From: Candidatus Micrarchaeota archaeon
GTDB lineage: Archaea; Micrarchaeota; Micrarchaeia; Anstonellales; Bilamarchaeaceae
NCBI GenBank assembly: GCA_040753215.1
Contig: JBFMEZ010000025.1
Coordinates: 74,440-138,439, forward strand
DNA length: 64,000 nucleotides
Reading direction: 5' to 3'
The notes under the pieces are model-generated. The model searched no databases, was not told where the DNA came from, and saw only the letters and a program-made list of their open reading frames with translations. Both the position numbers and the translations under genes were made by a program. Every line of letters begins with the position of its first letter. Position 1 is the first letter of the stretch. Of this stretch, positions 8,342 through 63,650 are shown piece by piece.

Positions 8342-8462
8342 GTTTCCAGTTTCCGTGTCTCTGCGGAGACAACTCCATGTTGCTTCGGCAACAACTGGCG
8401 AAGTTCTGCGGAACTTCACCATGGCAGAAACCCGCGGGTTTCCGCCATCGGGTTTCCAGTCA
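8341..8462 (+). repeat. Family A structured repeat (copy A1), flanked by GTTTCC heptamers
   Basis: A core of four consecutive hairpins: gtctctgcggagac, ttgcc-tc-ggcaa, gaagttc-tgcg-gaacttc, and atggcagaaacc...ggtttccgccat. It is near-identical to copies at 40809-40900 and 59453-59544. Confidence 0.8.
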
Positions 8463-9446
8463 TCTTTCTACGGTCGCGTTGTACCTCATCCCGTTCCAGA
8501 CTATCTTCACGTCCTCCCCTAGATAGTTCTCAATCACCGTTATGTTCCTCACGGTACCCAGGACCGCTGCGTTCTTCAGCGACTGCCTTGAATTTGTCCA
8601 GTCGGTTGCGCTCCCGCTTATCACAATCAGCTCCGGCTTCGTCTGGTCCATCATCCAGTTTATCTCAGTCAGCCCCGCGCCCATGCCGTGGTTCGGCCAC
8701 TGCACTATCTGGCACGGCCCGCTGAGCTGCGCGACCCTCTGCTGCGAGCCCAGTATGTCGCCCGTGAGCAGCACGCACAGCCCGCGGTCTTCAACCTTAA
8801 GGACAATCCCGTCATTATTCACGTCAAAGAACCTGTCCTCCCCCTTTATCGGGTTGAGCACGGTTATGTTTATCCCGTTCAGCACCGCACGGTCCCCTTC
8901 GCCAACAATCTTCAGGCTCTCTTCCCCAAGGTTCGCCAGGTAGGCGGCGTATTCCTGGCCCCCCTCCTCCGGCCTCCACACCTCCCCGAACCTGAACCTG
9001 TTGGACACGTACTCCAGCCCCCCATAGTGCTCAGGGTCATCGTGGGTTGAAACCACAAGCTCAAAATCGTCCACGCCCTTCTCCAGCAGCATGTTCACGA
9101 GTTTCTGCTGGCTTACAGAAGGCCCCCCGTCCACGAGTATGTCCGTGTCCCCTTTCTTTATGAGGACCGCATCCCCCTGCGTGTCCCCGGAGCCCACGTT
9201 GAAGAAATACACGTACAAATCCGTATTCGGCGTGCTCACGTACTCCGTGGCGCTCGCCTGCGGCGGGGTTGCGTTGCCCTGCGTGACCACAGTCCCCTCG
9301 CCCTCCCTTATCACAAGATAGCCGCCGGAAGCGTTTCCGGTTTCCGGTGTCCTGTTTCCGGTTTCCTGTTCTCCGGCAGGCGGCTGTCCGCCGCCGATGC
9401 AGCCCAAAACAAGCAAAAGAACCAGCCCGAATGCGATCCACTTCAT
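8460..9446 (-). CDS. Secreted metallo-beta-lactamase-fold lipoprotein (ComEC/Rec2-type MBL domain)
   Basis: Signal peptide with a lipobox-like LGCIGG. The MBL motifs LIDGG and HxHxDH-like STHDDPEH are present. An in-frame heptamer array after the signal peptide encodes ETGNRTPETGN. Confidence 0.6.
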   Translation of the reverse strand: MKWIAFGLVLLLVLGCIGGGQPPAGEQETGNRTPETGNASGGYLVIREGEGTVVTQGNATPPQASATEYVSTPNTDLYVYFFNVGSGDTQGDAVLIKKGDTDILVDGGPSVSQQKLVNMLLEKGVDDFELVVSTHDDPEHYGGLEYVSNRFRFGEVWRPEEGGQEYAAYLANLGEESLKIVGEGDRAVLNGINITVLNPIKGEDRFFDVNNDGIVLKVEDRGLCVLLTGDILGSQQRVAQLSGPCQIVQWPNHGMGAGLTEINWMMDQTKPELIVISGSATDWTNSRQSLKNAAVLGTVRNITVIENYLGEDVKIVWNGMRYNATVER

Positions 9447-10437: not shown

Positions 10438-10523
10438 GCCTTATTCTCTCACTCCTGCTTAAAAAACTCTTTCCAAAACCCGCAGTCCCCGGTTTTAAAA
10501 CATTTCCTATCATAAATAATAAC

Positions 10524-11537
10524 ATGGCTGAAACCACCTACCAGCCGCAGACACAGCAAAGAATCCTGCAGGTGCCCGCCGCTGAGCAAAAAGACGCATT
10601 GTTCCGCAAGCATCCGTTCCTCAAGCACTTCGGCACCAGGCAGCGCAACAAGGCCGGGGAGTGGCTGATGGTGCTGGCAGAACGTGAAAAGCTTGTTTCG
10701 TCGTTTGTCCAGTGCATTGTGGATGAACTTGCAAGAAAGGATGCACGCGAGAAGATGTGCTCTCTGGTGGCGGGTCCTTCTCCCGAAGCAATGGATAAGT
10801 TCATAGAAGCCGCGAAGGCAAAGGCCGAAGACTATGGCATCGAAACAGATGGCTTGAGACACGAATCTGTGCTAGAGAAAATAAGGCGGAGCCCCTTAGA
10901 TGCGGTCGAGATAACAGTATTGGCAGATGTGCTTCGTGCCAACGGAATCTTCTTTGGCCGTTATGGCCACAATATAGTTGACGCCTTTATCGCGGACATA
11001 ATCAAATATGCATCGTTCCCCTTCATGACTAAGCCGGCGGCGTATGTTCTTTGTAAAGATACCATGTTGTTTTTTGGGAGGGTTGTCGAGCCAGGGTCCC
11101 CCCTCTTCTTTTTTATGCCATCCGCATGGGCTGACGGGCACCAGTTTGTAATACCCCACTCACGGTGGTATAGATCCGAAGCGCTTTGCCCCGAAGCCAT
11201 ACAGCACGAAGCACAACACATGTTCGATGCTAATGCAGGGATTATTTTCGAGAATATTGAATACACACCATACCTTGCTGGATTTGCATTTGCACCGGAA
11301 GTACGCGTCTATCCTCAGTTGCCAGACCCAGGGCCTCATTCTTCAGCCCGTTTGCGCATCCACAACGAACTCATGGCGCTATTCGATTTCGGCGATGCCA
11401 TCAGGCTAATTTCTTTGTCTCCAGAGCAGGTTAATGCAGCCGCGCTCGCGCTGTTGAATGCCGAATACAAGAGGAAGATTGGCTTCACCTACGATGAGCT
11501 GGTCGCACCGTTCAAAGAATTGCAACCCGTCATCTAG
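10524..11537 (+). CDS. Hypothetical protein with an HExxH motif (possible zinc metallopeptidase-like)
   Basis: The motif reads AIQHEAQHMF. The gene is lower in GC than its neighbours, and no other domain was recognised. Confidence 0.4.
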   Translation: MAETTYQPQTQQRILQVPAAEQKDALFRKHPFLKHFGTRQRNKAGEWLMVLAEREKLVSSFVQCIVDELARKDAREKMCSLVAGPSPEAMDKFIEAAKAKAEDYGIETDGLRHESVLEKIRRSPLDAVEITVLADVLRANGIFFGRYGHNIVDAFIADIIKYASFPFMTKPAAYVLCKDTMLFFGRVVEPGSPLFFFMPSAWADGHQFVIPHSRWYRSEALCPEAIQHEAQHMFDANAGIIFENIEYTPYLAGFAFAPEVRVYPQLPDPGPHSSARLRIHNELMALFDFGDAIRLISLSPEQVNAAALALLNAEYKRKIGFTYDELVAPFKELQPVI

Positions 11538-11577: not shown

Positions 11578-12228
11578 ATGATAGTCCTCAATCTTAAGAA
11601 TTATTCCGCCTCCTTCACCCGCTGCCTCGCCCTCACGGACGCGGCCGCGAAGGTCTCCCATGATTCCGGCATGCGCATAATCGTGTGCCCCCCTCCCACC
11701 CACCTAAACTGTTCCGCCTCCATGTACAAGGACGTCTTCGCCCAGCACACGGATGCGTTCGAGCAGGGCGCGCACACAGGTTTCCTCATTCCGGAGGCGC
11801 TCAAATCCATCAACGTAAAGGGCTCATTGGTAAACCATTCCGAGCACAGGATAGGCACGGAGAATGTAGGAAAAACCGTTTCCCTGCTCAAAACCCACGG
11901 ATTGGAAACCGTGGTTTGCGGAGAAAATGCGACAGAATGCGCAGAATTAGCCAAGTTCGGCCCGGATTACATCGCGGTTGAGCCACCCGAACTCATCGGC
12001 TCAGGCATTTCAGTTTCCACAGCGAAGCCCGAAGTGATTACTTCTACAGTAGATGCAGTAAAAGCAGCCAACCCTTCCGTCCGCGTCCTCTGCGGCGCCG
12101 GAGTCTCCACAAAGGAGGATGTAAAGAAATCCCTGGAATTGGGCGCAAAGGGAGTCCTGCTCGCCTCCGCATATGTGAAGGCAAAGGACCCGGTCAAGTT
12201 TTTGCAGGAGTTCGCCGGGGCGTTCTGA
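11578..12228 (+). CDS. tpiA: Triosephosphate isomerase (archaeal type)
   Basis: The NHSEHR active-site motif is present and the protein is ~216 aa. Confidence 0.85.
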   Translation: MIVLNLKNYSASFTRCLALTDAAAKVSHDSGMRIIVCPPPTHLNCSASMYKDVFAQHTDAFEQGAHTGFLIPEALKSINVKGSLVNHSEHRIGTENVGKTVSLLKTHGLETVVCGENATECAELAKFGPDYIAVEPPELIGSGISVSTAKPEVITSTVDAVKAANPSVRVLCGAGVSTKEDVKKSLELGAKGVLLASAYVKAKDPVKFLQEFAGAF

Positions 12229-12344
12229 AAAAATGTGCCAGTCCGTGTCCGTTTAAATATTTCAGTACATAATACAACCATGAACTCAAGACGTTTGCAA
12301 TTTGTTCAGTTGGGACTGCCCATTCGTACCCGGAAGCAAGGAGA

Positions 12345-12947
12345 ATGGCTGCAAGCCGGGACATGGAACTCCCCGCTTACAAGTTGCTTGACAGATATTT
12401 CCTGAACCATGCTGGTTCCGGAATGGCCAAAGAACTCCTTGCCCACCCGGAAAAGGACGGCGTTTTCCAGAGAGGAAGGGACATCAGGGATTCCTTATCA
12501 GACCTCTCAATCCCGGCGTCTGAAGTGCCTCCGCAGGCATTCGGAAGGAAAGGAATCGGGATGCTGGTGGTGCCGAGGGATGGGGAAGAGGGACTGGAGG
12601 CAAGCAAAGGGCGGACATACGTCCATCCGCAGCCCATAGCAATTTTCAATGGAATGGTACAGACCTCCGGTAGATGGGTGTACGGATGCATGCCGCATGG
12701 CAACTTGGGGTTTCCAGTCGCAATGTCAATCTACGATACGTGTGCAGAAGATACGAAGAGGTCGCTTTTACGGACTGCGGGCGAGGGCATTAGGCCTGTC
12801 AAGTGCGGGTGCGTCATCGTAAAGGGCGCATGGTACAACAAATTCGTCTACCTGGGCGGCAGTCCGTCGTATGGTCTTAGAGTGGTTGGAGTGCTTCCCT
12901 CCAGCGAAAGCGCCCCGCAGCACTATTATGGACTAGGCGGCAGGTAG
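12345..12947 (+). CDS. Hypothetical protein inside an inserted island
   Basis: 200-aa ORF with no recognisable motifs. Confidence 0.35.
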   Translation: MAASRDMELPAYKLLDRYFLNHAGSGMAKELLAHPEKDGVFQRGRDIRDSLSDLSIPASEVPPQAFGRKGIGMLVVPRDGEEGLEASKGRTYVHPQPIAIFNGMVQTSGRWVYGCMPHGNLGFPVAMSIYDTCAEDTKRSLLRTAGEGIRPVKCGCVIVKGAWYNKFVYLGGSPSYGLRVVGVLPSSESAPQHYYGLGGR

Positions 12948-13142
12948 CGTTTTAGGGGAATGCCTTAGGCCAATTATGGAACTTATCTGGGCAGCCCAAA
13001 ACTTTAGCCGTAGAATATCTGCCTTAGTGAAAGGTCCTTGGGCAAACTGACATGCACCCACTTCTTTCTTTCAACCCATCGTCTTTCCATATCTGTTAAT
13101 AAACATATCGCACGTAATATACATATCAAACAGGTGAAAGAA

Positions 13143-13364
13143 ATGGTAAGCATAACACTGTCCGTCCCTCTGGAGCTGAAGAAGGAGATGGAGGTCTTCC
13201 CGGAGATGAACTGGAGCGAGGTCGCGAGGCAGGCGATAATCAGGAAACTGCAGATGCTCAAGAAGTTCAGGGAATTCTCGAAGGAGAGCAAGCTCACAGA
13301 AGATGATGCGCTGCGGCTCGGCCAAGAAGTCAGCGCGGCGGTTTCAAGGCGCCACAAGAGATGA
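13143..13364 (+). CDS. vapB: VapB-type antitoxin (RHH/CopG-like)
   Basis: The protein begins MVSITLSVPLELKKEMEVFPEMNWSEVARQAI, typical of archaeal VapB antitoxins. It sits immediately upstream of a PIN-domain gene. Confidence 0.6.
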   Translation: MVSITLSVPLELKKEMEVFPEMNWSEVARQAIIRKLQMLKKFREFSKESKLTEDDALRLGQEVSAAVSRRHKR

Positions 13365-13368
13365 AGGG

Positions 13369-13764
13369 ATGCAGCTCGTGGTGGATGCGAACATCCTTTT
13401 CGCTGCCCTGATAAAGGACAGCAAGACAATCGAGCTTCTTTTCAGCGATTTTGCGATGTTCTTCGCCCCGGAATTCATACTTGAGGAATTCCAAAAGCAC
13501 AGGGACGAAATCCTGCAAAAGACCAGCAGGAGCCCGGAGGAGTTTGATTCCGTATTCGAAATCCTTAAGGAAGTCATCATCGTTGTGCCAAAAGAGGACT
13601 ACGAAGGCATGCTTCCCGCCGCGGATAAAATCGCCCCGGACCCTAAAGACGCCCCCTATCTCGCCCTTGCGCTCAAGTTGAACATTCCGATATGGAGCAA
13701 CGATAAGAGGCTAAAAACCCAAAACGAAGTGAACGTATACAGCACAAAAGAGCTTTTGGGATAA
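13369..13764 (+). CDS. vapC: VapC PIN-domain toxin
   Basis: The protein begins MQLVVDANILFAAL, with a conserved Asp in the first strand. It is ~130 aa and lies directly after vapB. Confidence 0.65.
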   Translation: MQLVVDANILFAALIKDSKTIELLFSDFAMFFAPEFILEEFQKHRDEILQKTSRSPEEFDSVFEILKEVIIVVPKEDYEGMLPAADKIAPDPKDAPYLALALKLNIPIWSNDKRLKTQNEVNVYSTKELLG

Positions 13765-13999
13765 GCAAAGGACCCGGTCAAGTTTTTGCAGGAGTTTGCG
13801 GCGGCATTCTGAAAAGTGTGGTAATAGCTTCTTAAATATTCCCATATACTAATACCTTTATGAACGCTACAATTCATGCAGCAAGATTGATCCGCGGCCC
13901 GGCGCTGGAAGTGCTCGTCCCCAGGAGCAGGGGCGTGCCTTTTGACGAGGCGCTCGGGGTTGCGGAGCGGGGAAGGATGTTATTGCTTCAAACCTGAGA

Positions 14000-14563
14000 T
14001 TGCACAGGGCACAAACAACCGGGGAGTGGAGGGCCATTAGAGAAGTTTTTGCATGCTGGACGGGTACAATGGTGGGCTTCGTGGAGCCGGGCGAAAGGCT
14101 TGGGGAGGCAATTGTGTGGAACGAGCCCGGAACAGCCATTGAAAGGGTTTTCCCGGTTCCAAAGAGGTTCAGGGAGCTGAGGGATTGCGCCCTTGTTGTG
14201 GAACATCCATATTACACTATTGAGCCAAAGGGGAATGAAAGGATTGTCAGGGCAGAAAGGGGAAAGGTGGAAGTTGTAGAGGAATTGCCACCTGAGGATG
14301 GCTTTTATCTTATAGACCCGAAGCACGGCATCCCGCAGGGAAAAAAAGTGGAGCCAGAAGGTCGGGTGGATTTGGCAAATCTGTCTAGGATTGCGAAAAG
14401 GGTGGGCCTTGTTGCCTGCGGCAACAACAACTGGGGCGGCTACGTCAGGCGGTACGTCGACGCGGTCTACCAGGTGTCCTGCAGGCTCGGGGTGGCAGTG
14501 GAAGCCCCCGGAGGGGGCGCGCCGAAAATGCACCGCCAACACAGAGGAGAAGCGCTGGAATAA
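14000..14563 (+). CDS. Hypothetical protein
   Basis: 187-aa ORF within the island. No motif was recognised, and the start is uncertain. Confidence 0.35.
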   Translation: MHRAQTTGEWRAIREVFACWTGTMVGFVEPGERLGEAIVWNEPGTAIERVFPVPKRFRELRDCALVVEHPYYTIEPKGNERIVRAERGKVEVVEELPPEDGFYLIDPKHGIPQGKKVEPEGRVDLANLSRIAKRVGLVACGNNNWGGYVRRYVDAVYQVSCRLGVAVEAPGGGAPKMHRQHRGEALE

Positions 14564-14860
14564 GCCAAGCGCCTCGCGCAAGGCGCGGCATCTGCAGTTG
14601 AGCATCTAGGCACGGTGGTCGCAGCCGAGCGCCTAGAAGAGATAAGGGCGTTGATTGCGGCAGTTGAAATTGAGCATTCCACCCATCTCTGATGGGTGGT
14701 GGGGGGTGGAATGCAGCTGTCAAAATGCTCCCAGTGCGAGCGCCCTTGCAAGCCACCGGCCTGCGGCCGGTGGTGGCGCGAGCATTTTGACAATCTCTAG
14801 CCCGCCAGCGCGAAAACATATAGTCCAAACTATGCAAATATCATAGCCGGGACTATATTT

Positions 14861-16297
14861 CTATCTGACCGGCAAGGAGTCAAACATCCGCGTTATATCT
14901 TTCAACTCCAGCCCAACCACCCCCCGCTCTTCCATGTATCTTTTCGCAGATGGCGTAAATCCTGCCTTCGCAACGACCAGCATCCTTACGTTTGAGCGCT
15001 GTTCATGCGTGCAGGAAAGGAAGGAAATCCTGCTCTCAAGCTCCGCCACAACCTGCGCGTCAGCAGGCGTGTTCTCCCACTTCACCTCGCCCACGAGCAT
15101 GGATTTCTTCCCAAGCGCTACGATATCCATGTCTCCCTCCTTGCGCCCCCACCAGCTTCCAAGCTCGTAGAACTCCAGAACCGCGTCCCCAAGCTTTTTG
15201 CCGTTCCATTTCGCCAAAAGCTCCTTCACCACGCTTTCAAACACGCGCCCTTCGAAAGCAGGCATCTCCGCCGCAATCCTTTCCTTGACATAATTGTAGT
15301 TCTCTATCTCAAGCGCGGAAAGGTTCCTGAACACGAAATTGTACCAGAAGGCGAAGAAATTGTCCTGGAAAACATACTGCGGCCGGTGCTTGCCGCAGAG
15401 GGGCGTAATCTTTTTTATGAGCTCAAGGTACTTCTCCAGCTTGTTCAGGTAAAAACCCATCTGGCCTGCGCCAATCCCGGTCTGGTCAGATATTTCCTTC
15501 GGATTCCTGTGCCCGCCAGCAATTGCTGCCAGGATGGAATTGTACCTTCCCGTATTCTTCAGCTCCATCCGCAGGAGCGCCTGCGGCTCGTCGCGCAGAA
15601 GCCCGTCCTTCTTCAGCATTGCCGCCTCCACAACCCCCATGTACTTTGAAGCGTCGGTGCACTGCTCCGCAAAGCGCAGGTAGCTCGGCATCCCGCCGTA
15701 AGTTGCATAAAGCTTCATGAGCATCCCTTCATCAATCCCCGGAAGCGCCTGCCTGAACGACTGGTAGTCAAAAGGGCGAAGCTTTATCCGTGCGGTCGCC
15801 CTCCCAAAGAGAGGCGATTTGCTGCTTATCGCTATGCGTTGTATCGCGCCAACCGCTGAGCCGAGGAAAACAACCATTATCGGCACATCTTTGAGCTTGG
15901 TGTCCCATAATTTCTGGAACCTAGTGAAGGCCCTCGGGTCCGTGCGCATTCTCTGGAATTCATCAATCACTACGACGGTCTTCCTTTCCCCCGCCCTCTC
16001 ACCGAGAAATGAGAAGAAAGACTCCCACGCCCTGAAGTCTGCCCTGACCTCCGGCCACGATATGGATACATCTTCGGATATTGAACGGAGCATGTCCGCA
16101 GGAGCCCTCTCGTCCACGAGAATGTAAGCTCCTTCGTCCTTGGGAACGTTGTCGGCGAGGAATTTCCTTACAAGCTCGGTTTTCCCAACCCTCCTCCTGC
16201 CATACAGGATGATTAGTTCCCCGCGGCGCAGGTTCTCAAACCTCTGCCTGAAAGTTTCCAGCTCCTCTTTTCTGTCGGTGAATTTTACCATGCACAA
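14861..16297 (-). CDS. Archaeal ATPase family protein (AAA+ Arch_ATPase with C-terminal DUF234-like domain)
   Basis: Walker A reads GRRRVGKT and Walker B reads VVIDEFQ. The C-terminal winged-helix/DUF234-like region is of a type common in archaeal accessory regions. Confidence 0.65.
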   Translation of the reverse strand: MCMVKFTDRKEELETFRQRFENLRRGELIILYGRRRVGKTELVRKFLADNVPKDEGAYILVDERAPADMLRSISEDVSISWPEVRADFRAWESFFSFLGERAGERKTVVVIDEFQRMRTDPRAFTRFQKLWDTKLKDVPIMVVFLGSAVGAIQRIAISSKSPLFGRATARIKLRPFDYQSFRQALPGIDEGMLMKLYATYGGMPSYLRFAEQCTDASKYMGVVEAAMLKKDGLLRDEPQALLRMELKNTGRYNSILAAIAGGHRNPKEISDQTGIGAGQMGFYLNKLEKYLELIKKITPLCGKHRPQYVFQDNFFAFWYNFVFRNLSALEIENYNYVKERIAAEMPAFEGRVFESVVKELLAKWNGKKLGDAVLEFYELGSWWGRKEGDMDIVALGKKSMLVGEVKWENTPADAQVVAELESRISFLSCTHEQRSNVRMLVVAKAGFTPSAKRYMEERGVVGLELKDITRMFDSLPVR

Positions 16298-16363
16298 TAC
16301 TTATAGTTCAAACTATATAAATGTTATTGTTTCGGCTATAACTTAGAAAACCAGCACAAGTAG

Positions 16364-18268
16364 TCATCCGTAAAATATCGGCCTCAGAGACAATTCCTTG
16401 GGCATGCTGAGCTGCTCAAATGGTTTATCCGCAGTTTTCTTCTTAATCTCCGCAGCCAGCTCCTCAGCCTTCATCTCTTTCTTTTCCCCGGTCTCACGAA
16501 CAGTAACAGAAAGCTTGCCGCTCTCCATTTCCTTGTCCCCAACCACAGCAACATAAGGAACCCAGTCCTTTTCCGCCTGCCTTATCTTCTTTGCGAGGCT
16601 TTCCTGCGTATCATCGATGTCCGTCCGTACCCCCTCAAACTTTGCAAACAGTTTCCCTGCATATTCCAGATGCCTGTCTGCAATAGGAATAATCCGCACC
16701 TGCGTTGGAGAAAGCCAGAGCGGAAGCATCGCCTTCTCCCCCTTCTCCATCCTCATCGCTTCCTTCTCCAAGAGAGCATAGACCACCCTTTCCAGGCTCC
16801 CGGAAATGGATGCATGCGTAATCACGGGCTTCTTCCTGCTTCCATCCTCATCCACATAATGGATTCCGTACGTGCCTGCATTCTCCACATCAATCTGCAC
16901 CGTAGTAAGTGCAGAAGCCTTGTCCATCGAATCCAAAAAGTTGAACTCAAATTTCGTAATGAAGTACGCATACCTCTCATCAAACATCTCCACAAGCACC
17001 GGCTTTCCAATCCTCTTCACCATCCTCGCATACCATTCCTTATTTTTCTCATAGAAATCCGTCTCTATGCGGAAGCCCACCTCCGCCTTCTCAAACAACC
17101 CAACCGAAGAAAGCCAGGAAATCCCAAGCCCAAGCTGCCTCTCAAACTCCTCCTGCGCCTGTGGAATGTCCCTGCAGAGGGCGTGCATATCCGGCATCGT
17201 GAAAGCCCGCAATCTCTTCAGCCCGGCGAGCTCCCCTCCCTGCTCGCGCCTAAATGAATAGCGCGTCAATTCATACATTTTCAAAGGAAGGTGCCTGTGC
17301 GAAATCACCATTCCCGTGGCCATCAAAAACTGCCCGAAGCAGGCGGAGAACCGTAAAAACAGCTTCTTCTCGTCCGAAAGCACCACATACTGCCTCGCAG
17401 GGAAGCGGTCAAGGTATTTCTTCAGCGTCGGGTGCTCAAAATCATACATCACGGGCGTCTCCACCTCCATCGCCCCATAATCCACGCAGAAATCCGTTAT
17501 GTCCTTCTCAAGTATTCTTTTGATCAGCCGCCCGTTCGGGTACCAGCGGAAGTTCCCCTGATCCGTCCCAGGCTCGTAATCCACGAACTCGTGCTCCTTC
17601 ATTATCTTCACGTGCGGCGGCTCCTTCTCATACGCCCGCACCTTCTTGGCCTCATAGGTCATGAACTTATGCAATCCCTCATGTCCCTTGTAATTGAACT
17701 TCTCATGCTCAACCAGCTTCCCTTCCGGAGTAAGCACATAGAACCTGCTCTGCAGCCCCGCCTCCTTTTTTAGGGATTCCGAAACCCTCTCTTCGCTCTC
17801 CACGCCCTTTATCTTCATCTCCTTTTTCTCTGCCTTCATTCCCGGAGTGAAAACGCGCGAAAGCTCACTAAGCGGATGGCCTTTTGCCTCCACCTTGAAT
17901 TTTTTATAATAGCCGAAAGGCGCCCTAAGCACCGTAAACCCGTTCTCCTTCAGCGCCCCCTCGATATCCTTGAGCAATTGTATCGCCGCTTCCGGAGAGG
18001 ATGGCGTGCTCCCAAAAAGAAGGTGCGCATACGGATAAAGCATCACATTCCTGCATTTCACCTGCTCGGAGACAGACAAAAGGTCATCCACGGCCTGCTG
18101 CGCAATCCCGTTCAGGTCCTCCTCATCGCTCTTCTCCACCGCAATCCGGACCCAGATTACGTCCTTCATCTCGCCTTTTTCCATTTCCTTGGGAATAGCT
18201 TCCGCAAACTTGGTCTTCCTGGTGGTCTCGTACGAAACCCTGTCCGCATGGATGATAAGCTCCTTCAT
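16364..18268 (-). CDS. thrS: Threonyl-tRNA synthetase, archaeal type with N-terminal editing domain
   Basis: The protein has an N-terminal archaeal editing domain, class II aaRS core motifs, and a C-terminal anticodon-binding domain. Confidence 0.9.
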   Translation of the reverse strand: MKELIIHADRVSYETTRKTKFAEAIPKEMEKGEMKDVIWVRIAVEKSDEEDLNGIAQQAVDDLLSVSEQVKCRNVMLYPYAHLLFGSTPSSPEAAIQLLKDIEGALKENGFTVLRAPFGYYKKFKVEAKGHPLSELSRVFTPGMKAEKKEMKIKGVESEERVSESLKKEAGLQSRFYVLTPEGKLVEHEKFNYKGHEGLHKFMTYEAKKVRAYEKEPPHVKIMKEHEFVDYEPGTDQGNFRWYPNGRLIKRILEKDITDFCVDYGAMEVETPVMYDFEHPTLKKYLDRFPARQYVVLSDEKKLFLRFSACFGQFLMATGMVISHRHLPLKMYELTRYSFRREQGGELAGLKRLRAFTMPDMHALCRDIPQAQEEFERQLGLGISWLSSVGLFEKAEVGFRIETDFYEKNKEWYARMVKRIGKPVLVEMFDERYAYFITKFEFNFLDSMDKASALTTVQIDVENAGTYGIHYVDEDGSRKKPVITHASISGSLERVVYALLEKEAMRMEKGEKAMLPLWLSPTQVRIIPIADRHLEYAGKLFAKFEGVRTDIDDTQESLAKKIRQAEKDWVPYVAVVGDKEMESGKLSVTVRETGEKKEMKAEELAAEIKKKTADKPFEQLSMPKELSLRPIFYG

Positions 18269-22507: not shown

Positions 22508-22530
22508 TGCGGCCGCCGGGATTCGAACCC
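22508..22530 (-). other. Displaced 23-nt copy of the tRNA-Gly(TCC) 3' end (T-arm plus acceptor), an att-like duplication
   Basis: Identical to positions 23141-23163 of the intact tRNA. It is separated from the tRNA by the cdd cassette. Confidence 0.8.
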
Positions 22531-23287: not shown

Positions 23288-23334
23288 TCTGCATCGCTGC
23301 GGCGATGTCTGGCGAAGTTCTGCGGAACTTCACC
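23288..23334 (+). repeat. Family A repeat, partial copy A2
   Basis: It contains the gcatcgctgcggcgatg hairpin followed by tctggcgaagttctgcggaacttcacc. Confidence 0.6.
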
Positions 23335-23396
23335 ATCGCTCGGCGCAAAAAGGAGCCCAAAAACCTCAAGCTCCTTTACCTCATTTCTCTCTACGT

Positions 23397-35870: not shown

Positions 35871-36078
35871 AGCCCCGGAGGGGGATTGAACCCCCGACCT
35901 CTCGCTGTCCCGTTTCCGGTTTCCGCATCTCTGCGGAGATGACTCCGCTTCTCTGCGGAGAAGACTGGCAGAATCCTTCGGGATTCCGCCATGGCAGAAA
36001 CCTGCTGGTTTCCGCCATCCTGTTTCCAGTTCCGAACCGGATTACGAGGCGAGCGCTCTACCGCTGAGCTACCGAGGC
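35871..36078 (-). tRNA. tRNA-Thr (anticodon CGT) with ~136-nt intron (about 35906-36041) in the anticodon loop at or near position 37/38
   Basis: Exon 1 reads GCCTCGGTAGCTCAGCGGTAGAGCGCTCGCCTCGTAA and exon 2 reads GCGAGAGGTCGGGGGTTCAATCCCCCTCCGGGGCT. The anticodon stem is ctcgc/gcgag with loop ctCGTaa. The intron contains a family-A repeat copy. Confidence 0.7.
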
Positions 36079-40790: not shown

Positions 40791-40808
40791 CCAGTCCCCC
40801 GTTTCCAC

Positions 40809-40900
40809 ATCGCTTCGCGATGACTCCATGTTGCCTCGGCAACAACTGGCGAAGTTCTGCGGAACTTCACCATGGCAGAAACCTTCCGGGTTTCCGCCAT
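40809..40900 (+). repeat. Family A repeat, copy A4, overlapping the 5' end of the PHP gene
   Basis: Reads atcgcttcgcgatgactccatgttgcctcggcaacaactggcgaagttctgcggaacttcaccatggcagaaaccttccgggtttccgccat. Confidence 0.8.
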
Positions 40901-41538
40901 CCAGTTTCCCGAAGCTAAACATTGACTTCCACGTGCACACCTCCTTCTCTTCGGATGGAAGGATAAAATTAGCTGAACTCGCCTCCCTTTCCAAACAATT
41001 CGGAATAATCCCCGCCCTCACCGACCACAACAACATGGATGCCTGCTCCCCCTTCAAAAAATTCGAAATCCCCTTCATCCCCGGAGAGGAAATCCGCGTT
41101 GCACAGGGCGATTTCATAGGCCTCTTCCTCTCCGAGCCGATTCCTGAAGGGATAGATTTCTACGAAGCCCTCGACTTAATCCGTGCGCAGGGAGCCCTCG
41201 CTTATGTCCCGCACATGTTCGACGCACTCCGCCCCGGAGTAGTAAAGGAGGAATACGGAAAAGCCGCAGACATAATAGAAGTATTCAACGCCCGCTCCTT
41301 CGCCCGCTTCGACAGGCAGGCAGAAGAATTCGCCAAAAGGGAAGGCAAATTAATGGCGGCAGGAAGCGACGCCCACTTCCCGTTCGAATTCGGGCACACT
41401 TATACCGAATTAAGCCTCACCCCAGACCAACTGGAACCCAAATCTCTTCTCCGCGCTTTAAAGAATGCGAGAATAGCAGGAAAGCGCACTTCTTTTCTCA
41501 AGAGGAAAATAGCGAAATATACCGGAATCTACATCTAA
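40828..41538 (+). CDS. PHP-domain phosphoesterase; the only in-frame ATG lies inside repeat A4
   Basis: The PHP motif begins at LNIDFHVHTSFSSDG, with a later GSDAH motif. No ATG/GTG/TTG lies between the repeat and the first His motif. The annotated N-terminus MLPRQQLAKFCGTSPWQKPSGFPPSSFPK is therefore repeat-encoded. Confidence 0.6.
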   Translation: MLPRQQLAKFCGTSPWQKPSGFPPSSFPKLNIDFHVHTSFSSDGRIKLAELASLSKQFGIIPALTDHNNMDACSPFKKFEIPFIPGEEIRVAQGDFIGLFLSEPIPEGIDFYEALDLIRAQGALAYVPHMFDALRPGVVKEEYGKAADIIEVFNARSFARFDRQAEEFAKREGKLMAAGSDAHFPFEFGHTYTELSLTPDQLEPKSLLRALKNARIAGKRTSFLKRKIAKYTGIYI

Positions 41539-43816: not shown

Positions 43817-43920
43817 CCAGGGAAGATATCCGCAGATTTGCAGCCTCAGATTGTCGGTTATGGAAGGAAAAAATCCGCAAAAGTTTCCTTCCATGTTAGA
43901 CGCCTTATAGCATCGTTTTT

Positions 43921-44122
43921 CACTGAACCTCCACGGCTCGGTCACACCTTGTAGTCGCCTGCGTGGCGGCGATAGGTCTGCCTAGCCATTGGGTGCGGCT
44001 ACAAGGTGTGAGGAAGCCTCGGCATTTATGCCGGGGAGGAGAGCCGAGGCTTCCTCTAAAGGCAGCAGGAATACATCTGCCCTTTATCTACGAAGAAGCC
44101 ACGGCCTTTAGTGGAGGTTCAC
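43921..44122 (+). repeat. Family C ~200-nt structured repeat, copy C1
   Basis: 99% identical to 46120-46325. The ends (cactgaacctccac...gtggaggttcac) are inverted-repeat-like and can pair. It has internal hairpins (gaggaagcctcggc/gccgaggcttcctc and caccttgtag/ctacaaggtg). Confidence 0.8.
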
Positions 44123-44186: not shown

Positions 44187-44882
44187 CTATTTTTCTCCAA
44201 CCACAATCGCAAAATTAGCTAAAGGTGGCACCAGCACCCGTGTTTTTCTGAACCCAAACCCATCCATAATCTTCTTCAGCTCAAGTGGGCAGATAGGGTA
44301 TTCCTTCGGATGCTTTTCCTGGTACTCCTTGCTCATGCCTTTCAGCGCCTGCGCCCAGCTCCGGTCGAATTCTCTTGCCCTTTTTGGATTCTTCTTTCTT
44401 AATCTCCAAACTTTTTCCTTATACTCGCTACTGGGCTTAAACCAGTCCCCTATCACCAGTCTTCCGCCTTCACGAAGAGACTTCCGTATCCGGGAAATAA
44501 CAGCCGCCTTATTCTTCACGTGATGAAAAGCGAGGTTGGAAACCACATAATCTGCACGCCCGCCGAACCCCTCTATCGGAGAAGCTTTGAATTTCATATT
44601 CTTAATTCCAGCAACCCTAACCTTCCCCATTGCTACCTTCATCATGCCTTTGGAAACATCCACGCAAGTTACCTGCGCCTTCGGCTTCCTCTCCGCAAGC
44701 CTTATGGCAAGCCCTCCACTCCCGGCTCCCAGGTCCGCCACCCTGCATTTCCGGTCCGGAACCTCCCTTATTATGTTGTCCACAAGCCATCTGTAAAACA
44801 AGTATTGGTACCTGTCCTGCTCTTCGTACTCTTTCGCGTATTTATCGAAGAACTCCTTTGCCTTTTTCACAATCAAAACCAC
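44187..44882 (-). CDS. Class I SAM-dependent methyltransferase
   Basis: SAM motif I reads VADLGAGSGGLAI. The start is a GTG that overlaps the stop of the displaced fen-1 tail. Confidence 0.75.
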   Translation of the reverse strand: MVLIVKKAKEFFDKYAKEYEEQDRYQYLFYRWLVDNIIREVPDRKCRVADLGAGSGGLAIRLAERKPKAQVTCVDVSKGMMKVAMGKVRVAGIKNMKFKASPIEGFGGRADYVVSNLAFHHVKNKAAVISRIRKSLREGGRLVIGDWFKPSSEYKEKVWRLRKKNPKRAREFDRSWAQALKGMSKEYQEKHPKEYPICPLELKKIMDGFGFRKTRVLVPPLANFAIVVGEK

Positions 44883-44945
44883 TTATCCAAAGTCCGCTGG
44901 CTCCGCGTCTCCTTCACGTTGCTCATCATCCCTTCCAGCGCCTTC
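44876..44945 (-). other. Displaced duplicate of the fen-1 3' end (last 22 codons, ending in a canonical PIP box)
   Basis: It encodes ALEGMMSNVKETRSQRTLDKWF*. The current gene end is EGMLSNVKETRSQRTLDKWL*. Nucleotide identity over 70 bp is about 70%. Confidence 0.75.
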
Positions 44946-44951
44946 TCCCGG

Positions 44952-45020
44952 AAAAACGCGGGGAACCCAGGTTCCCCCCATTTTTACCGTTTATTCTGAC
45001 CCCCTCCTAACGGTTTTCAG
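44952..45020 (+). repeat. Family B repeat, short copy B7, lying between fen-1 and its displaced 3' end
   Basis: Reads aaaaacgcggggaacccaggttccccccatttttaccgtttattctgaccccctcc. Confidence 0.7.
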
Positions 45021-46054
45021 AGCCACTTATCCAATGTTCGTTGGCTTCTTGTTTCTTTTACATTGCTTAGCATTCCCTCTAAAGCTCTTTCTACCCTCTC
45101 CCTTGAGAAATCGTGCTCCTCCACCAACAATTCTATTACTCCCTCCCTGCTCGCCTTCCCCCACCCCAGCTCTCCGACCTCCTTCACTGGCGGGCTCATG
45201 AAAAAACCGAAAATCGCCTCCACATCCTCAGGAAACTCATATCCCTTCTCCTTCTTCAAATATGCCCTCACCTTCTCCAGCGTATCATTCTCTTTCACAA
45301 TCTTCAGACCGGTTTTCGGCCCAATCCCCCGCACCCCTTCATTGAAATCCGTTCCCACAAGAATCCCAATCAAAATCAATTGCTCCCTCTTCAGCCCAAG
45401 CGCCTTCAGCGTCTCTTCCAGCTCCACCCTCTCAATCTCTATATCTATGAACCTATTCTGCTTCGGCACCTTCCTTTTCCCGGTAATGGACAAATTCCTC
45501 AAAAGCACCGGCGACCCAAATAGAACCGAATCATAATCCTGCGATGCGGCCGCATAGCAAAGCCCTGTCCCCACCATCCACGCTGCCTGCGCCTCCCCTT
45601 CAGAGGGCGCCTGCACCCAGGGAATCCCCATCAGTGAAAGCAGCCTCTTCCCCTCATCCACCATCTCCTTGGTGAGCCGCGAGCTTGCCTGCGCATATTT
45701 CCTCGCCTCCTCAATTTTCTCCTCCGCAAGCGCCTTCTTCCATTTGTGCTCCGCCTCCCTCCGCACCTCTATCCTTTCCTCTATAGTTTTCCTCTTGAAT
45801 TCCGGCGGAGGCCCGTCAAACACATAAATAGGTTTTATCCCAGCATTCACCAATCTTATGCTCCTGTAAAATAGCCCAGATAAATGCCCGGTCACCCGCC
45901 CCTTCATATCCATTAAGGGCGTCCCGTCCTCCTGCCTTATGGAAGCCAAAAATTGATAGAGTATATTCATCCCATCTATCGCTATGCTCTTTCCCGCAAG
46001 CTCCTCCAGCTCGACCTTGTGCTTAATTGCAAGGTCGCCCAAATCTACTCCCAT
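45017..46054 (-). CDS. fen: Flap endonuclease 1
   Basis: The XPG-N and XPG-I motifs and the N-terminal sequence MGVDLGDLAIKHKVELEELAGKSIAIDGMNILYQFL are present. The C-terminal PIP-like box reads QRTLDKWL. Confidence 0.9.
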   Translation of the reverse strand: MGVDLGDLAIKHKVELEELAGKSIAIDGMNILYQFLASIRQEDGTPLMDMKGRVTGHLSGLFYRSIRLVNAGIKPIYVFDGPPPEFKRKTIEERIEVRREAEHKWKKALAEEKIEEARKYAQASSRLTKEMVDEGKRLLSLMGIPWVQAPSEGEAQAAWMVGTGLCYAAASQDYDSVLFGSPVLLRNLSITGKRKVPKQNRFIDIEIERVELEETLKALGLKREQLILIGILVGTDFNEGVRGIGPKTGLKIVKENDTLEKVRAYLKKEKGYEFPEDVEAIFGFFMSPPVKEVGELGWGKASREGVIELLVEEHDFSRERVERALEGMLSNVKETRSQRTLDKWL

Positions 46055-46119
46055 CCTAATCCTCGCTTACCTATAATCAGGCATACTTTTATTTCTCTGC
46101 CTGCCGCAGCCGGCAGACT

Positions 46120-46325
46120 CACTGAACCTCCACGGCTCGGTCACACCTTGTAGTCGCCTGCGTGGCGGCGATAGGTCTGCCTAGCCATTGGGTGCGGCTA
46201 CAAGGTGTGAGGAAGCCTCGGCATTTATGCCGGAGAGGAGAGCCGAGGCTTCCTCTAAAGGCAGCAGGAATACATCTGCCCTTTATCTACGAAGAAGCCA
46301 CGGCCTTTAGGCCGTGGAGGGTCAC
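46120..46325 (+). repeat. Family C repeat, copy C2
   Basis: See copy C1. This copy ends in the perfect hairpin gccacggcc-ttta-ggccgtggag. Confidence 0.8.
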
Positions 46326-59433: not shown

Positions 59434-59452
59434 ATAAGTCCCCAGTTTCTAT

Positions 59453-59544
59453 ATCGCTTCGCGATAACTCCATGTTGCCTCGGCAACAACTGGCGAAGTT
59501 CTGCGGAACTTCACCATGGCAGAAACCCCCCGGGTTTCCGCCAT
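59453..59544 (+). repeat. Family A repeat, copy A5 (between rps19e and the PDCD5-like gene)
   Basis: Reads atcgcttcgcgataactccatgttgcctcggcaacaactggcgaagttctgcggaacttcaccatggcagaaaccccccgggtttccgccat. Confidence 0.8.
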
Positions 59545-59570
59545 CCGGTTCCCAGTCCCCGGTTCCGCGC

Positions 59571-63537: not shown

Positions 63538-63650
63538 AAAACGCGGAGGGGGGCGCCCCTCCTCATTTTTTCCTGGATGGTGAAATTCCGCAGAATTTCG
63601 CCAGACATCGCCGCAGCGATGCAGATTTTCTGATCCTCCCCCCACTTCAC
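63538..63650 (+). repeat. Family B repeat (copy B10) with a nested inverted partial family A copy (A6, 63579-63624)
   Basis: Reads aaaacgcggaggggggcgcccctcctca, then rc(tggcgaagttctgcggaacttcacc...), then cctccccccacttcac. It is flanked by ttttcctc-containing direct repeats. Confidence 0.7.

What the first reader, a model, noticed from the sequence alone, without database searches (positions are those of the whole stretch)
12178..16408. A ~4-kb island between convergent tpiA and thrS is bounded and subdivided by diverged duplicates of both genes' 3' ends
The tpiA C-terminus (AKDPVKFLQEFAGAF*, 12178-12233) is repeated at 13763-13815 (AKDPVKFLQEFAAAF*). The thrS C-terminus (SMPKELSLRPIFYG*, 16368-16408) is repeated in antisense at 13008-13049 (SLPKDLSLRQIFYG*). 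The segments between carry a hypothetical gene, a vapBC pair, another hypothetical gene, a palindrome-rich 290-bp non-coding stretch, and an Arch_ATPase/DUF234 gene. This looks like at least two nested 3'-end-targeted insertions of the same kind as the family B events, but carrying cargo and lacking B. It points to a general 3'-end-capturing integration process in this genome.
Basis: seen in the sequence. Interest (0 to 1): 0.65.

Follow-up and report, generated by a model that had tools for sequence, protein, structure and literature searches.

The report
Gene-cassette hotspot between tpiA and thrS
In this tiny archaeon two essential genes that normally end back-to-back have been pushed 4 kb apart by a stack of small foreign gene cassettes, each still bordered by a leftover copy of the genes' ends: a familiar kind of integration scar, but at an unusual target and with no integration enzyme in sight.

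Summary
The last ~50 nt of tpiA recur at 13765-13815 (47/51 identical) and the last ~52 nt of thrS recur at 13004-13055. Both repeats are far beyond chance.

The organism is a Micrarchaeota (DPANN) archaeon. In five close relatives tpiA and thrS are convergent with overlapping stop codons and no spacer, so the empty site exists. Ten further junctions carry at least six different cargo sets, five of them with tail duplicates of varying length (36-85 nt).

The copies are interleaved (tpiA, thrS', tpiA', thrS), not nested. This is what results when a segment spanning both gene ends is duplicated around an insert.

Differences between functional and displaced tails are mostly synonymous. The displaced copies were therefore once working gene ends of diverged alleles, not fresh in-situ duplications.

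The cargo is modular:
- two frameshifted genes of a DGR-target-type variable-protein superfamily
- a vapBC pair
- a 1.54-kb ATPase_2/DUF234 cassette with its own terminal repeats

No integrase, transposase or reverse transcriptase was found in the island or among the 49 window ORFs scanned (44 outside the island).

Best reading: an additive recombination hotspot built by Campbell-type insertions of DNA carrying its own copy of the target ends. The catalyst is unresolved.

The parts
11578..12228 (+). tpiA (triosephosphate isomerase), the left-hand core gene
   Evidence: Pfam TIM 8.8e-39. It is 90-93% aa identical to relatives, where it abuts thrS.
12181..12231 (+). Functional tpiA tail, copy 1 of the tpiA direct repeat (attL-like)
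   Evidence: 47/51 identical to 13765-13815; z = 30.7.
12232..13007 (+). Cassette 1: own promoter-like box (TTTAAATATTT, about 12253) plus a decayed hypFam gene. The original ATGAAC start is at 12280, there is a frameshift just after the start, the remaining ORF is 12345-12947, and a C-terminal remnant ends at TAG 13005-13007.
   Evidence: 62% aa identical to the intact 267-aa L019 gene and 51% to the L024 gene. Hit by L033, L029 and L027 family members. The about 50-nt upstream block is conserved at every family locus, tpiA-linked or not.
13004..13055 (-). Displaced thrS tail (thrS'), a pseudo-copy of the last 16 codons plus the stop
   Evidence: 72% over 64 nt to 16352-16415; z = 12.7. 8 of 11 nt differences in the 45 nt compared are synonymous, P = 0.00075. 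It is closer to the functional tails of L001 (29/33) and of L002, L003 and L018 (28/33 each) than to its own genome's tail (25/33).
13096..13764 (+). Cassette 2: vapBC. Promoter region from 13096, vapB 13143-13364 (RHH-type), vapC 13369-13764 (PIN_2).
   Evidence: PIN_2 4.2e-29. RHH_12 is annotated on homologues. 90% nt identical to L021 208-922 and 89% to L037.
13765..13815 (+). Displaced tpiA tail (tpiA'), starting immediately after the vapC stop
   Evidence: The same vapC-stop|GCAAAGG junction occurs in L021. 3 of 4 differences are synonymous. It shares the derived TTTTTG with copy 1, which suggests gene conversion.
13816..14563 (+). Cassette 3: promoter-like box plus a frameshifted gene of about 233 codons from a second variable-protein family. 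ATGAAC start at 13860, a 1-nt deletion near 13977, and the remaining ORF 'hyp187' at 14000-14563.
   Evidence: Homologue P0258 (64% id, 270 aa) spans both frames. 495 library representatives. The C-terminal 50 aa match the hypFam variable-region scaffold: hhalign probability 81.5%, E 1e-5. The DNA matches the L033 template repeat.
14564..14812 (.).
   Evidence: MFE z = -5.0 on the + strand and -4.9 on the - strand. No Rfam match and no other copy in the window or loci. Absent from L037, so it is not part of the ATPase cassette.
14813..16349 (-). Cassette 4: a discrete 1.54-kb ATPase_2/DUF234 unit (CDS 14861-16297) bounded by about 48-nt imperfect direct repeats that carry the palindrome TATAGTYCAAACTATA (14819-14834 and 16302-16317)
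   Evidence: Pfam ATPase_2 and DUF234. The whole unit is 85% nt identical in L037, where it lies next to a 71-nt tpiA' instead of thrS. The 16-mer occurs only at the two cassette ends, 0.02 expected.
16364..16415 (-). Functional thrS tail (attR-like copy)
16364..18268 (-). thrS (archaeal threonyl-tRNA synthetase), the right-hand core gene
   Evidence: Pfam tRNA-Thr_ED, tRNA-synt_2b and HGTP_anticodon. 89-91% aa identical to relatives.

Best explanation
The tpiA|thrS junction is a strain-variable, additive recombination hotspot in one Micrarchaeota genus. In the ancestral (empty) state the two essential genes converge and their stop codons overlap. DNA cannot enter there without damaging a gene unless the gene end is restored.

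The island was built by several Campbell-type (reciprocal, single-crossover) insertions. Incoming, probably circular, DNA carried its own copy of the last 36-85 nt of tpiA and/or thrS and recombined with the resident tail. Each event leaves one working 3' end on the gene and pushes the other copy inward as a partial pseudo-tail. These are the attL/attR-like repeats at 12181/13765 and 16364/13004. Because the two tails are contiguous in the empty site, a repeat spanning the junction yields the interleaved order seen here.

Later events and recombination between tail copies stacked and reshuffled four cassettes: hypFam, vapBC, hypFam2 and ATPase. Two of these have since decayed.

Shown here:
- the duplications
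- the empty sites
- independent occurrence of each cassette
- different repeat lengths in different events
- the coding-type (synonymous) divergence of displaced tails

Inferred:
- the circular intermediate
- the order of events
- the catalyst

On the catalyst I give roughly equal weight to two options. One is host homologous recombination using the tails as portable homology (about 0.35). The other is a tyrosine integrase acting in trans or since lost (about 0.30).
For: Empty site with overlapping stops in L002, L003, L004, L018 and L026.

Fifteen junctions surveyed:
- 5 are empty.
- 5 carry one gene without tail duplication: L001, L017, L024, L030 and L031 (L030 and L031 carry the identical hypFam protein).
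- 5 are composite with tail copies: the window, L019, L021, L025 and L037.

L021 and L037 keep tpiA-tail fused to a 36-nt thrS' exactly as in an empty junction, followed by vapB(C) and a tpiA'. This is the pattern expected of a junction-spanning repeat.

The tpiA repeats are 48-51, 71 and 85 nt long in three different events, and the thrS repeats are 36 and 52 nt. All end at the stop codon.

In L025 the distal 85-nt tail plus its downstream sequence is identical in type to the single-gene state of L019 and L024. The old tail was therefore displaced and a new one came in with the ATPase cassette.

Differences between functional and displaced tails are mostly synonymous with the stop kept in place: tpiA P = 0.027, thrS P = 0.00075, FEN1 P < 5e-5. 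The window thrS' matches the functional tails of other genomes better than its own.

The same cassettes occur in other arrangements or at other loci:
- the ATPase unit in L037
- vapBC at 67-69% identity at unrelated loci
- hypFam at four other loci with the same about 50-nt upstream boundary

The two window tpiA tails share a derived TTTTTG absent from all twelve other tails compared except the L037 tail'. This indicates exchange between copies.

The pattern matches the published description of attachment-site copies flanking integrated elements, repeat integrations that push older elements inward, and scattered partial target copies (10.1101/2020.12.28.424599).
Against: - No recombinase of any kind was found in the island, in the 49 window ORFs scanned (44 outside the island), or in the short composite contigs of relatives.
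- No free circular or plasmid/viral form was found.
- The cassettes are very small (0.8-1.5 kb) for integrative elements.
- The single-gene inserts in L001, L017 and L024 have no tail duplication, so at least some DNA enters this junction by another route.
- The order of events cannot be reconstructed uniquely. For example, the window and L021 share the right vapBC junction but have different left junctions.
- All comparison sequences are metagenome contigs, several under 2.5 kb.
Confidence: 0.6

Rival explanations
1. In-situ duplication. A tandem duplication or long target-site duplication of the roughly 100-bp junction arose locally, for example from staggered breaks and fill-in. Unrelated DNA was later inserted into and beside it.
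For: A duplicated junction segment also gives the interleaved order. L021 and L037 show an intact junction-type left copy. Simple insertions without duplication do occur at this junction.
Against: Fresh duplicates would diverge mainly by random changes in the dead copy. Instead, the changes are mostly synonymous and the stops are conserved. The window thrS' resembles other genomes' functional alleles more than its own. At least five different cassette|tail breakpoints (tpiA -48, -71, -85; thrS -36, -52) would each need a separate long duplication.
Confidence: 0.12
2. Integron-like platform. The cassettes are captured and excised by an integron-type integrase at folded attC-like sites, and the tail copies are incidental.
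For: The cassettes are small, mostly single-gene and lack an integrase. Cassette arrays without a nearby integrase are common, and integrons exist in Archaea including the DPANN group (PMC9668308). The ATPase cassette has palindrome-bearing terminal repeats, and a structured 250-nt stretch follows cassette 3.
Against: No tyrosine recombinase was found in the window. The cassettes carry their own promoters and lie in both orientations. No shared hairpin site recurs between cassettes. The long hairpin at 14719-14787 has its GTCAAAA/TTTTGAC ends in the opposite order to an attC R''/R' pair (read from the sequence; the attC layout is from my own knowledge). The boundaries are gene tails, not attC.
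Confidence: 0.04
3. Assembly artefact. Co-existing strains with different islands were threaded together through the shared tails by the metagenome assembler.
For: All sequences are MAG or metagenome contigs. The repeats (32-85 nt) are in the size range that can confuse short-read assemblers.
Against: Each truncated-tail junction (vapC-stop|tpiA', thrS'|vapB promoter, ATPase promoter|tpiA') must exist in real molecules. The same junctions recur in independent assemblies from different samples: the window, L019, L021 and L037. The exact identity between the window's copies is only 32 nt, shorter than a read.
Confidence: 0.03
4. The retained tail copies are kept for a function, such as terminators or 5' leaders for the neighbouring cassette genes, rather than being passive scars.
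For: tpiA' lies directly upstream of the promoter of cassette 3. The FEN1 pseudo-tail overlaps the start of the downstream methyltransferase ORF. The stops and reading frames are preserved.
Against: Repeat lengths and contexts differ between genomes. The hypFam promoter block works at loci with no tpiA tail. The synonymous bias is explained by earlier life as a real gene end.
Confidence: 0.05

Closest known systems
Integrative elements and genomic islands that insert into the 3' end of a tRNA or protein gene and carry a replacement end (att duplication), with tandem accretion and decay, e.g. the tycheposon islands of Prochlorococcus (10.1101/2020.12.28.424599)
   Same: - Partial copies of the target end flank each insert.
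- The gene stays intact.
- Repeated use of one site pushes older inserts inward.
- Degenerate remnants and scattered partial target copies occur.
- Cargo is defence/TA-type.
- Empty sites exist in relatives.
   Different: - The target is the overlapping ends of two convergent protein genes, so both ends are duplicated and interleaved.
- No integrase or other mobility gene is present in any of the five composite islands seen.
- The units are only 0.8-1.5 kb.
- The repeat length differs from event to event.
Campbell-type insertion-duplication by homologous recombination, and flexible genomic islands exchanged through flanking core genes (named from my own knowledge)
   Same: - The insert is flanked by direct repeats of the shared homology.
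- No dedicated recombinase is needed.
- Repeat length varies.
- Conversion occurs between copies.
- Different strains carry different cargo between the same core genes.
   Different: - The homology here is very short (36-85 nt) and 6-28% diverged.
- No circular donor has been seen.
- A first illegitimate join is still needed to create each cassette|tail junction.
Integron cassette arrays, including those reported in Archaea (PMC9668308)
   Same: Arrays of small, mostly single-gene cassettes, often with no integrase nearby.
   Different: No IntI and no attC sites at the boundaries. The cassettes have their own promoters and mixed orientation, and gene tails mark the boundaries.
Diversity-generating retroelement (DGR) target genes of DPANN archaea (concerns the cargo only)
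   Same: hypFam is a demonstrated DGR target in L033, in the arrangement Avd - target - template repeat - RT. The 88-nt VR/TR pair has 13 of 16 mismatches at template adenines. The window genes share the variable-region scaffold.
   Different: The window has no RT, Avd or template repeat within 64 kb, and both window genes are frameshifted.

Membership tests
Site-specific integrative element (tyrosine-recombinase type) | Direct repeats made of the target sequence (attL/attR) flank the insert | tested here: met
   tpiA 47/51 and thrS 46/64, z = 30.7 and 12.7. The same holds in L021, L025 and L037.
Site-specific integrative element (tyrosine-recombinase type) | An uninterrupted target (attB) exists in related genomes | tested here: met
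   L002, L003, L004, L018 and L026 have tpiA and thrS with overlapping stops.
Site-specific integrative element (tyrosine-recombinase type) | An integrase gene is encoded within the element | tested here: not met
   No Phage_integrase or other recombinase among the five island ORFs or the 44 other window ORFs scanned. tblastn with the L029 and L033 integrases was negative.
Site-specific integrative element (tyrosine-recombinase type) | Crossovers are confined to one short core shared by all events | tested here: inconclusive
   All tpiA repeats share the last 48 nt and all thrS repeats share the last 36 nt. Crossover points cannot be mapped without donor sequences, and sliding identity along thrS shows no breakpoint.
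Site-specific integrative element (tyrosine-recombinase type) | A free circular form carrying attP exists | not testable with these tools
   This needs raw reads. The tail pattern had no match in viral contigs, and the extra metagenome matches were chance hits.
Integron / cassette array | An IntI integrase with attI is present | tested here: not met
   No tyrosine recombinase domain in the window ORFs scanned.
Integron / cassette array | An attC hairpin site lies at the 3' end of each cassette | tested here: inconclusive
   No shared inverted-repeat site lies between cassettes. Only the ATPase cassette has palindromic end repeats. No attC-specific model was available.
Transposon / casposon | Terminal inverted repeats, a transposase or Cas1, and a short fixed-length target duplication | tested here: not met
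   No such genes. The duplications are 36-85 nt, variable in length, and derive from diverged alleles.
VapBC toxin-antitoxin pair | A small RHH-type antitoxin gene lies directly upstream of a PIN-domain toxin gene | tested here: met
   PIN_2 4.2e-29 for 13369-13764. The 73-aa upstream gene had no Pfam hit here, but its homologues carry RHH_12.
Diversity-generating retroelement | A reverse transcriptase and a template repeat matching the variable region with adenine-specific mismatches | tested here: not met
   No RT, Avd or TR in the window. The feature is met only at the related locus L033.
ATPase_2 / DUF234 ('Arch_ATPase') proteins | An N-terminal ATPase_2 P-loop domain plus a C-terminal DUF234 | tested here: met
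   ATPase_2 3.9e-17 and DUF234 2.7e-20. 141 homologues at E <= 1e-60 across DPANN.

The most novel reading that the evidence does not exclude
Micrarchaeota may exchange small gene cassettes that lack a recombinase of their own. In this reading the cassettes travel with a short copy of the 3' ends of essential host genes. They enter and leave the chromosome by recombination at those ends, so the gene tails act as portable attachment sites. This would make the overlapping ends of convergent core genes (tpiA|thrS, possibly FEN1) a previously undescribed kind of cassette platform in ultra-small archaeal genomes.
Probability: 0.25. Interest if true: 0.7.

Novelty: new variant of a known kind. Interest (0 to 1): 0.45.

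Why it matters
DPANN archaea have very small, tightly packed genomes, and little is known about how they acquire genes. This locus gives a concrete, comparable series of states across about 15 related genomes: empty, single-gene and stacked. DNA has entered repeatedly at a junction with zero intergenic space while keeping both essential genes intact.

The synonymous-type divergence of the displaced tails shows that the incoming DNA came from diverged relatives and supplied working gene ends.

If the process turns out to need no dedicated integrase, it would be a simple and general route for cassette exchange (defence ATPases, toxin-antitoxin pairs, DGR-type variable proteins) in streamlined genomes. 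If an integrase acts in trans, the locus defines its attachment site. Either outcome can be tested directly with read-level data from the source metagenomes.

Tried and rejected
- Exact look-ups of window proteins (tpiA, VapC) found no record.
- Viral-contig scans with the tail pattern, the ATPase, VapC and the hypFam profile found nothing.
- Three of the ten metagenome hits to the 20-nt tail pattern (L020, L022, L023) were chance matches with no extension.
- hyp200 vs hyp187 by BLASTP was not significant. Only profile comparison linked their C-termini.
- The AlphaFold model of hypFam had pLDDT 42, so no fold search was run.
- Rfam found nothing in the island.
- No template repeat for either variable-protein gene lies in the window.
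- No direct repeats flank the integrase-linked hypFam loci L029 and L033, or the vapBC homologues in L034 and L035.
- Sliding identity along thrS gave no recombination breakpoint.
- The apparent extension of the thrS repeat 12 nt beyond the stop (12992-13003) is the C-terminal remnant of the hypFam gene, not part of the repeat. A longer (about 100 nt) decayed thrS' could not be demonstrated.
- The idea that hypFam cassettes carry the tpiA tail to other loci was rejected, because other loci have the promoter block but no tail.
- No FEN1 locus from a relative was available to look for its empty site.


Full report
**1. The observation**

tpiA (11578-12228, +) and thrS (16364-18268, -) are correctly identified.

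The last 51 nt of tpiA, including its stop, recur at 13765-13815 with 47/51 identity and the first 32 nt exact. The last 52 nt of thrS recur on the same strand at 13004-13055; the ungapped match is 46/64 over 12992-13055.

Against 300 dinucleotide-preserving shuffles of the island, the local alignment scores are 48 vs 12.2 +/- 1.2 (z = 30.7) and 28 vs 12.1 +/- 1.3 (z = 12.7). No shuffle came close. The 20-nt core of the tpiA tail occurs exactly twice in 64 kb, against 0.01 expected.

The one correction is that the four copies are interleaved (tpiA tail, thrS', tpiA', thrS tail), not nested.

**2. Where this comes from and what the empty site looks like**

A scan of GTDB species genomes with ThrS found Micrarchaeota (DPANN) MAGs at 89-91% aa identity. 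A metagenome scan with the tpiA-tail pattern added seven true loci; three further hits were chance matches.

In L002, L003, L004, L018 and L026 the two genes are convergent with overlapping stop codons: TTAG, CTAG, or tpiA reading through as TTTCATCCGTAG. There is no intergenic base at all. The flanking order secD-thrS-tpiA-translin-like gene is conserved.

The empty junction therefore exists, and the 4.1 kb between the genes in the window is inserted DNA.

**3. The junction is a hotspot**

Fifteen junctions were surveyed.
- Five are empty.
- Five carry a single gene with no tail duplication: L001 (513 bp), L017 (about 410 bp, AT-rich), and L024, L030 and L031 (a hypFam gene; L030 and L031 carry the identical protein).
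- Five are composite with tail copies.

The composite junctions are:
- the window;
- L019: tpiA - hypFam - thrS' - vapB, then the contig ends;
- L021: tpiA fused to a 36-nt thrS' exactly as in an empty site, then vapBC, a 48-nt tpiA', and unrelated 36%-GC cargo;
- L025: tpiA, a 31%-identical ATPase_2/DUF234 gene, an 85-nt tpiA', then hypFam;
- L037: tpiA fused to thrS'(36), vapB, vapC truncated after 5 codons, the same ATPase cassette as the window (85% nt identity), a 71-nt tpiA', then a distant hypFam relative.

**4. Why both tails are duplicated and interleaved**

In the empty site the two tails are contiguous. Any repeat that spans the junction copies both. After an insertion flanked by such a repeat, the left copy reads tpiA-tail|thrS' and the right copy reads tpiA'|thrS-tail. 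L021 and L037 preserve the left copy in exactly this form. In the window and L019 a hypFam gene lies between tpiA and thrS'.

**5. The displaced tails were once working gene ends of other alleles**

- tpiA: 3 of the 4 nt differences between tail and tail' are synonymous.
- thrS: 8 of 11 are synonymous, and the stop is kept in place.

The probability of so few amino-acid changes with an intact frame under random substitution is 0.027 for tpiA and 0.00075 for thrS.

The window thrS' matches the functional tails of L001 (29/33) and of L002, L003 and L018 (28/33 each) better than its own genome's tail (25/33). L021's tpiA' matches the tails of L024 and L025 (44/45) better than its own (41/45).

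In L025 the distal 85-nt tail and its downstream sequence are of the same type as the single-gene state in L019 and L024. There, the old tail was displaced and a new one arrived with the cassette.

This argues against a fresh in-situ duplication. It argues for incoming DNA that carried its own, independently evolved, copy of the target end.

The two window tpiA tails also share a derived TTTTTG that is seen otherwise only in the L037 tail'. This suggests exchange between copies.

**6. The cargo is modular**

(a) Region 12232-13007 is a decayed member of a small Micrarchaeota-only family, hypFam (16 database relatives, no Pfam domain). It has a frameshift just after its ATGAAC start and a truncated C-terminus. 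In L033 this family is a demonstrated DGR target. The arrangement there is an Avd-like gene, the target, an 88-nt template repeat, an RT and an integrase. Of the 16 VR/TR mismatches, 13 fall at template adenines. The family also sits at other loci, always with the same about 50-nt upstream block and without any tpiA tail.

(b) vapBC at 13096-13764 (PIN_2) is 89-90% nt identical in L021 and L037. Homologues at 67-69% identity sit at unrelated loci without tail copies.

(c) Region 13860-14563 is a gene of about 233 codons with a 1-nt deletion near 13977. Homologue P0258 spans both frames. It belongs to a larger family (495 representatives) whose C-terminal region matches the hypFam variable-region scaffold (hhalign 81.5%, E 1e-5; DNA match to the L033 template repeat).

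(d) Region 14564-14812 is strongly structured (z about -5 on both strands). It is unique and has no Rfam match.

(e) Region 14813-16349 is a discrete ATPase_2/DUF234 cassette. Its two ends carry about 48-nt imperfect direct repeats containing TATAGTYCAAACTATA. That 16-mer is found nowhere else in the window, against 0.02 expected. The same holds in L037, where the cassette abuts a tpiA' rather than thrS.

**7. What is missing**

No integrase, transposase, Cas1 or reverse transcriptase was found among the five island ORFs or the 44 other window ORFs scanned with Pfam. tblastn with the L029 and L033 integrases, the RT and Avd was also negative. There were no viral-contig relatives of the tail, the ATPase, VapC or hypFam. 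Base composition of the island is unremarkable.

**8. Mechanism**

The anatomy is that of an additive island. Target-end copies flank each unit, newer units push older ones inward, and remnants decay. This matches the published description for tRNA-targeting elements (10.1101/2020.12.28.424599).

I therefore commit to Campbell-type recombination between a tail copy on incoming DNA and the resident tail as the generating process (confidence about 0.6). The catalyst is not resolved.

For host homologous recombination:
- absence of any recombinase
- tiny units
- event-specific repeat lengths (48, 71 and 85 nt for tpiA; 36 and 52 nt for thrS)
- conversion between copies
- module reshuffling between the window and L037

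For a site-specific integrase acting in trans or since lost:
- repeated use of the same site
- att-like repeat sizes, all sharing the terminal 36-48 nt
- an integrase next to hypFam in L029 and L033

The single-gene inserts without duplication (L001, L017, L024) show that at least one other entry route exists.

**9. The claimed generality**

A scan of the 3' ends of all 193 open frames of at least 120 codons found only tpiA, thrS and one more real gene with a duplicated tail. That gene is FEN1: 45017-45079 vs 44873-44935, 75% nt identity but 18/20 aa identity, P < 5e-5. The copies flank an about 80-nt hairpin element.

By contrast, the 120-nt 'B' repeat at 8342-8460 lies exactly between convergent stops that abut in L030, with no tail duplication. 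The 1085-bp insertion upstream of tpiA also has none.

A genome-wide process is therefore possible but not shown.

**10. Caveats**

All comparison sequences are metagenome contigs, several under 2.5 kb. However, the diagnostic junctions recur in independent assemblies, and the exact repeat in the window is only 32 nt, so mis-assembly is unlikely. The order of events cannot be reconstructed uniquely. The frameshifts could be sequencing errors.

**11. Verdict**

This is a real and well-delimited integration hotspot of a known general kind. It has three unusual features: a target formed by the overlapping ends of two convergent essential genes, interleaved double tail scars, and no recombinase in or near the island. 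It is of moderate interest and becomes directly testable with read-level data.

Noticed in passing
window 35871-36078 (-), with 35912-36030; other copies at 8342-8460, 40793-40911, 59437-59555, 23296-23339, 63576-63625, 263-305: Rfam reports a 208-nt tRNA hit, meaning a tRNA gene with an intron of about 137 nt. That intron coincides with one copy of the roughly 120-nt three-hairpin 'B' repeat. Another copy lies exactly between two convergent stop codons that abut in relative L030. B may be a mobile intron-like element.
   Followed up: partly
window 44873-45079: The last 63 nt of FEN1 (45017-45079) are duplicated at 44873-44935. They are 75% nt identical but 18/20 aa identical, with nearly all changes synonymous. 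The copies flank an about 80-nt hairpin element (AAAAACGCGGGG...CCCCCCATTTTT + ATTCTGACCCCCTCC) that has further copies at 22529, 58892 and 63538. The scar type is the same as at tpiA/thrS.
   Followed up: partly
window 43920-44111 and 46119-46310: Two 192-nt direct repeats, 99% identical, flank the methyltransferase and FEN1 genes. Each has pairing ends (GAACCTCCAC...GTGGAGGTTC) and an internal 47-nt palindrome. Neither has an Rfam match.
   Followed up: partly
window 10442-11526 (ORF 10524-11537): A 1085-bp insertion carrying a 337-aa ORF with no Pfam domain lies between the divergent translin-like gene and tpiA. It is absent from L003, L004, L018, L025, L026, L030 and L037, and has no flanking duplication.
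   Followed up: partly
L033 7154-11097 (also L029 7105-9709): A complete DGR in a Micrarchaeota contig: an Avd-like gene, a hypFam target (VR 8515-8602), a template repeat (9013-9100; 13 of 16 mismatches at template adenines), an RVT_1 reverse transcriptase and an adjacent tyrosine integrase, with a PIN/antitoxin pair next door.
   Followed up: partly
window 14564-14812: A unique, strongly structured non-coding stretch (MFE z about -5 on both strands) lies downstream of the variable-protein gene. It has no Rfam match and no other copy, and it is not part of the ATPase cassette. It might be a remnant of a DGR 3' element or an unknown RNA.
   Followed up: partly
window 14819-14834 and 16302-16317; L037 847-862 and 2306-2321: The palindromic 16-mer TATAGTYCAAACTATA occurs only at the two ends of the ATPase_2/DUF234 cassette in both genomes, inside about 48-nt imperfect direct repeats. 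It could be a cassette-specific recombination site or an operator.
   Followed up: partly
window, 12 sites including 408, 1634, 2536, 5207, 9339, 18306, 46897, 56537, 63074: A GTTTCC-rich motif of about 36 nt (AGTTCTCGGTCTCCGGTTTCCAGTTTCCAG-like) recurs in intergenic regions. It also lies next to hypFam insertion sites in L027 and L032.
   Followed up: no
window 12280-12947 and 13860-14563: Both variable-protein genes in the island are frameshifted near their 5' ends relative to intact homologues. They are either pseudogenes or carry single-base assembly errors.
   Followed up: yes
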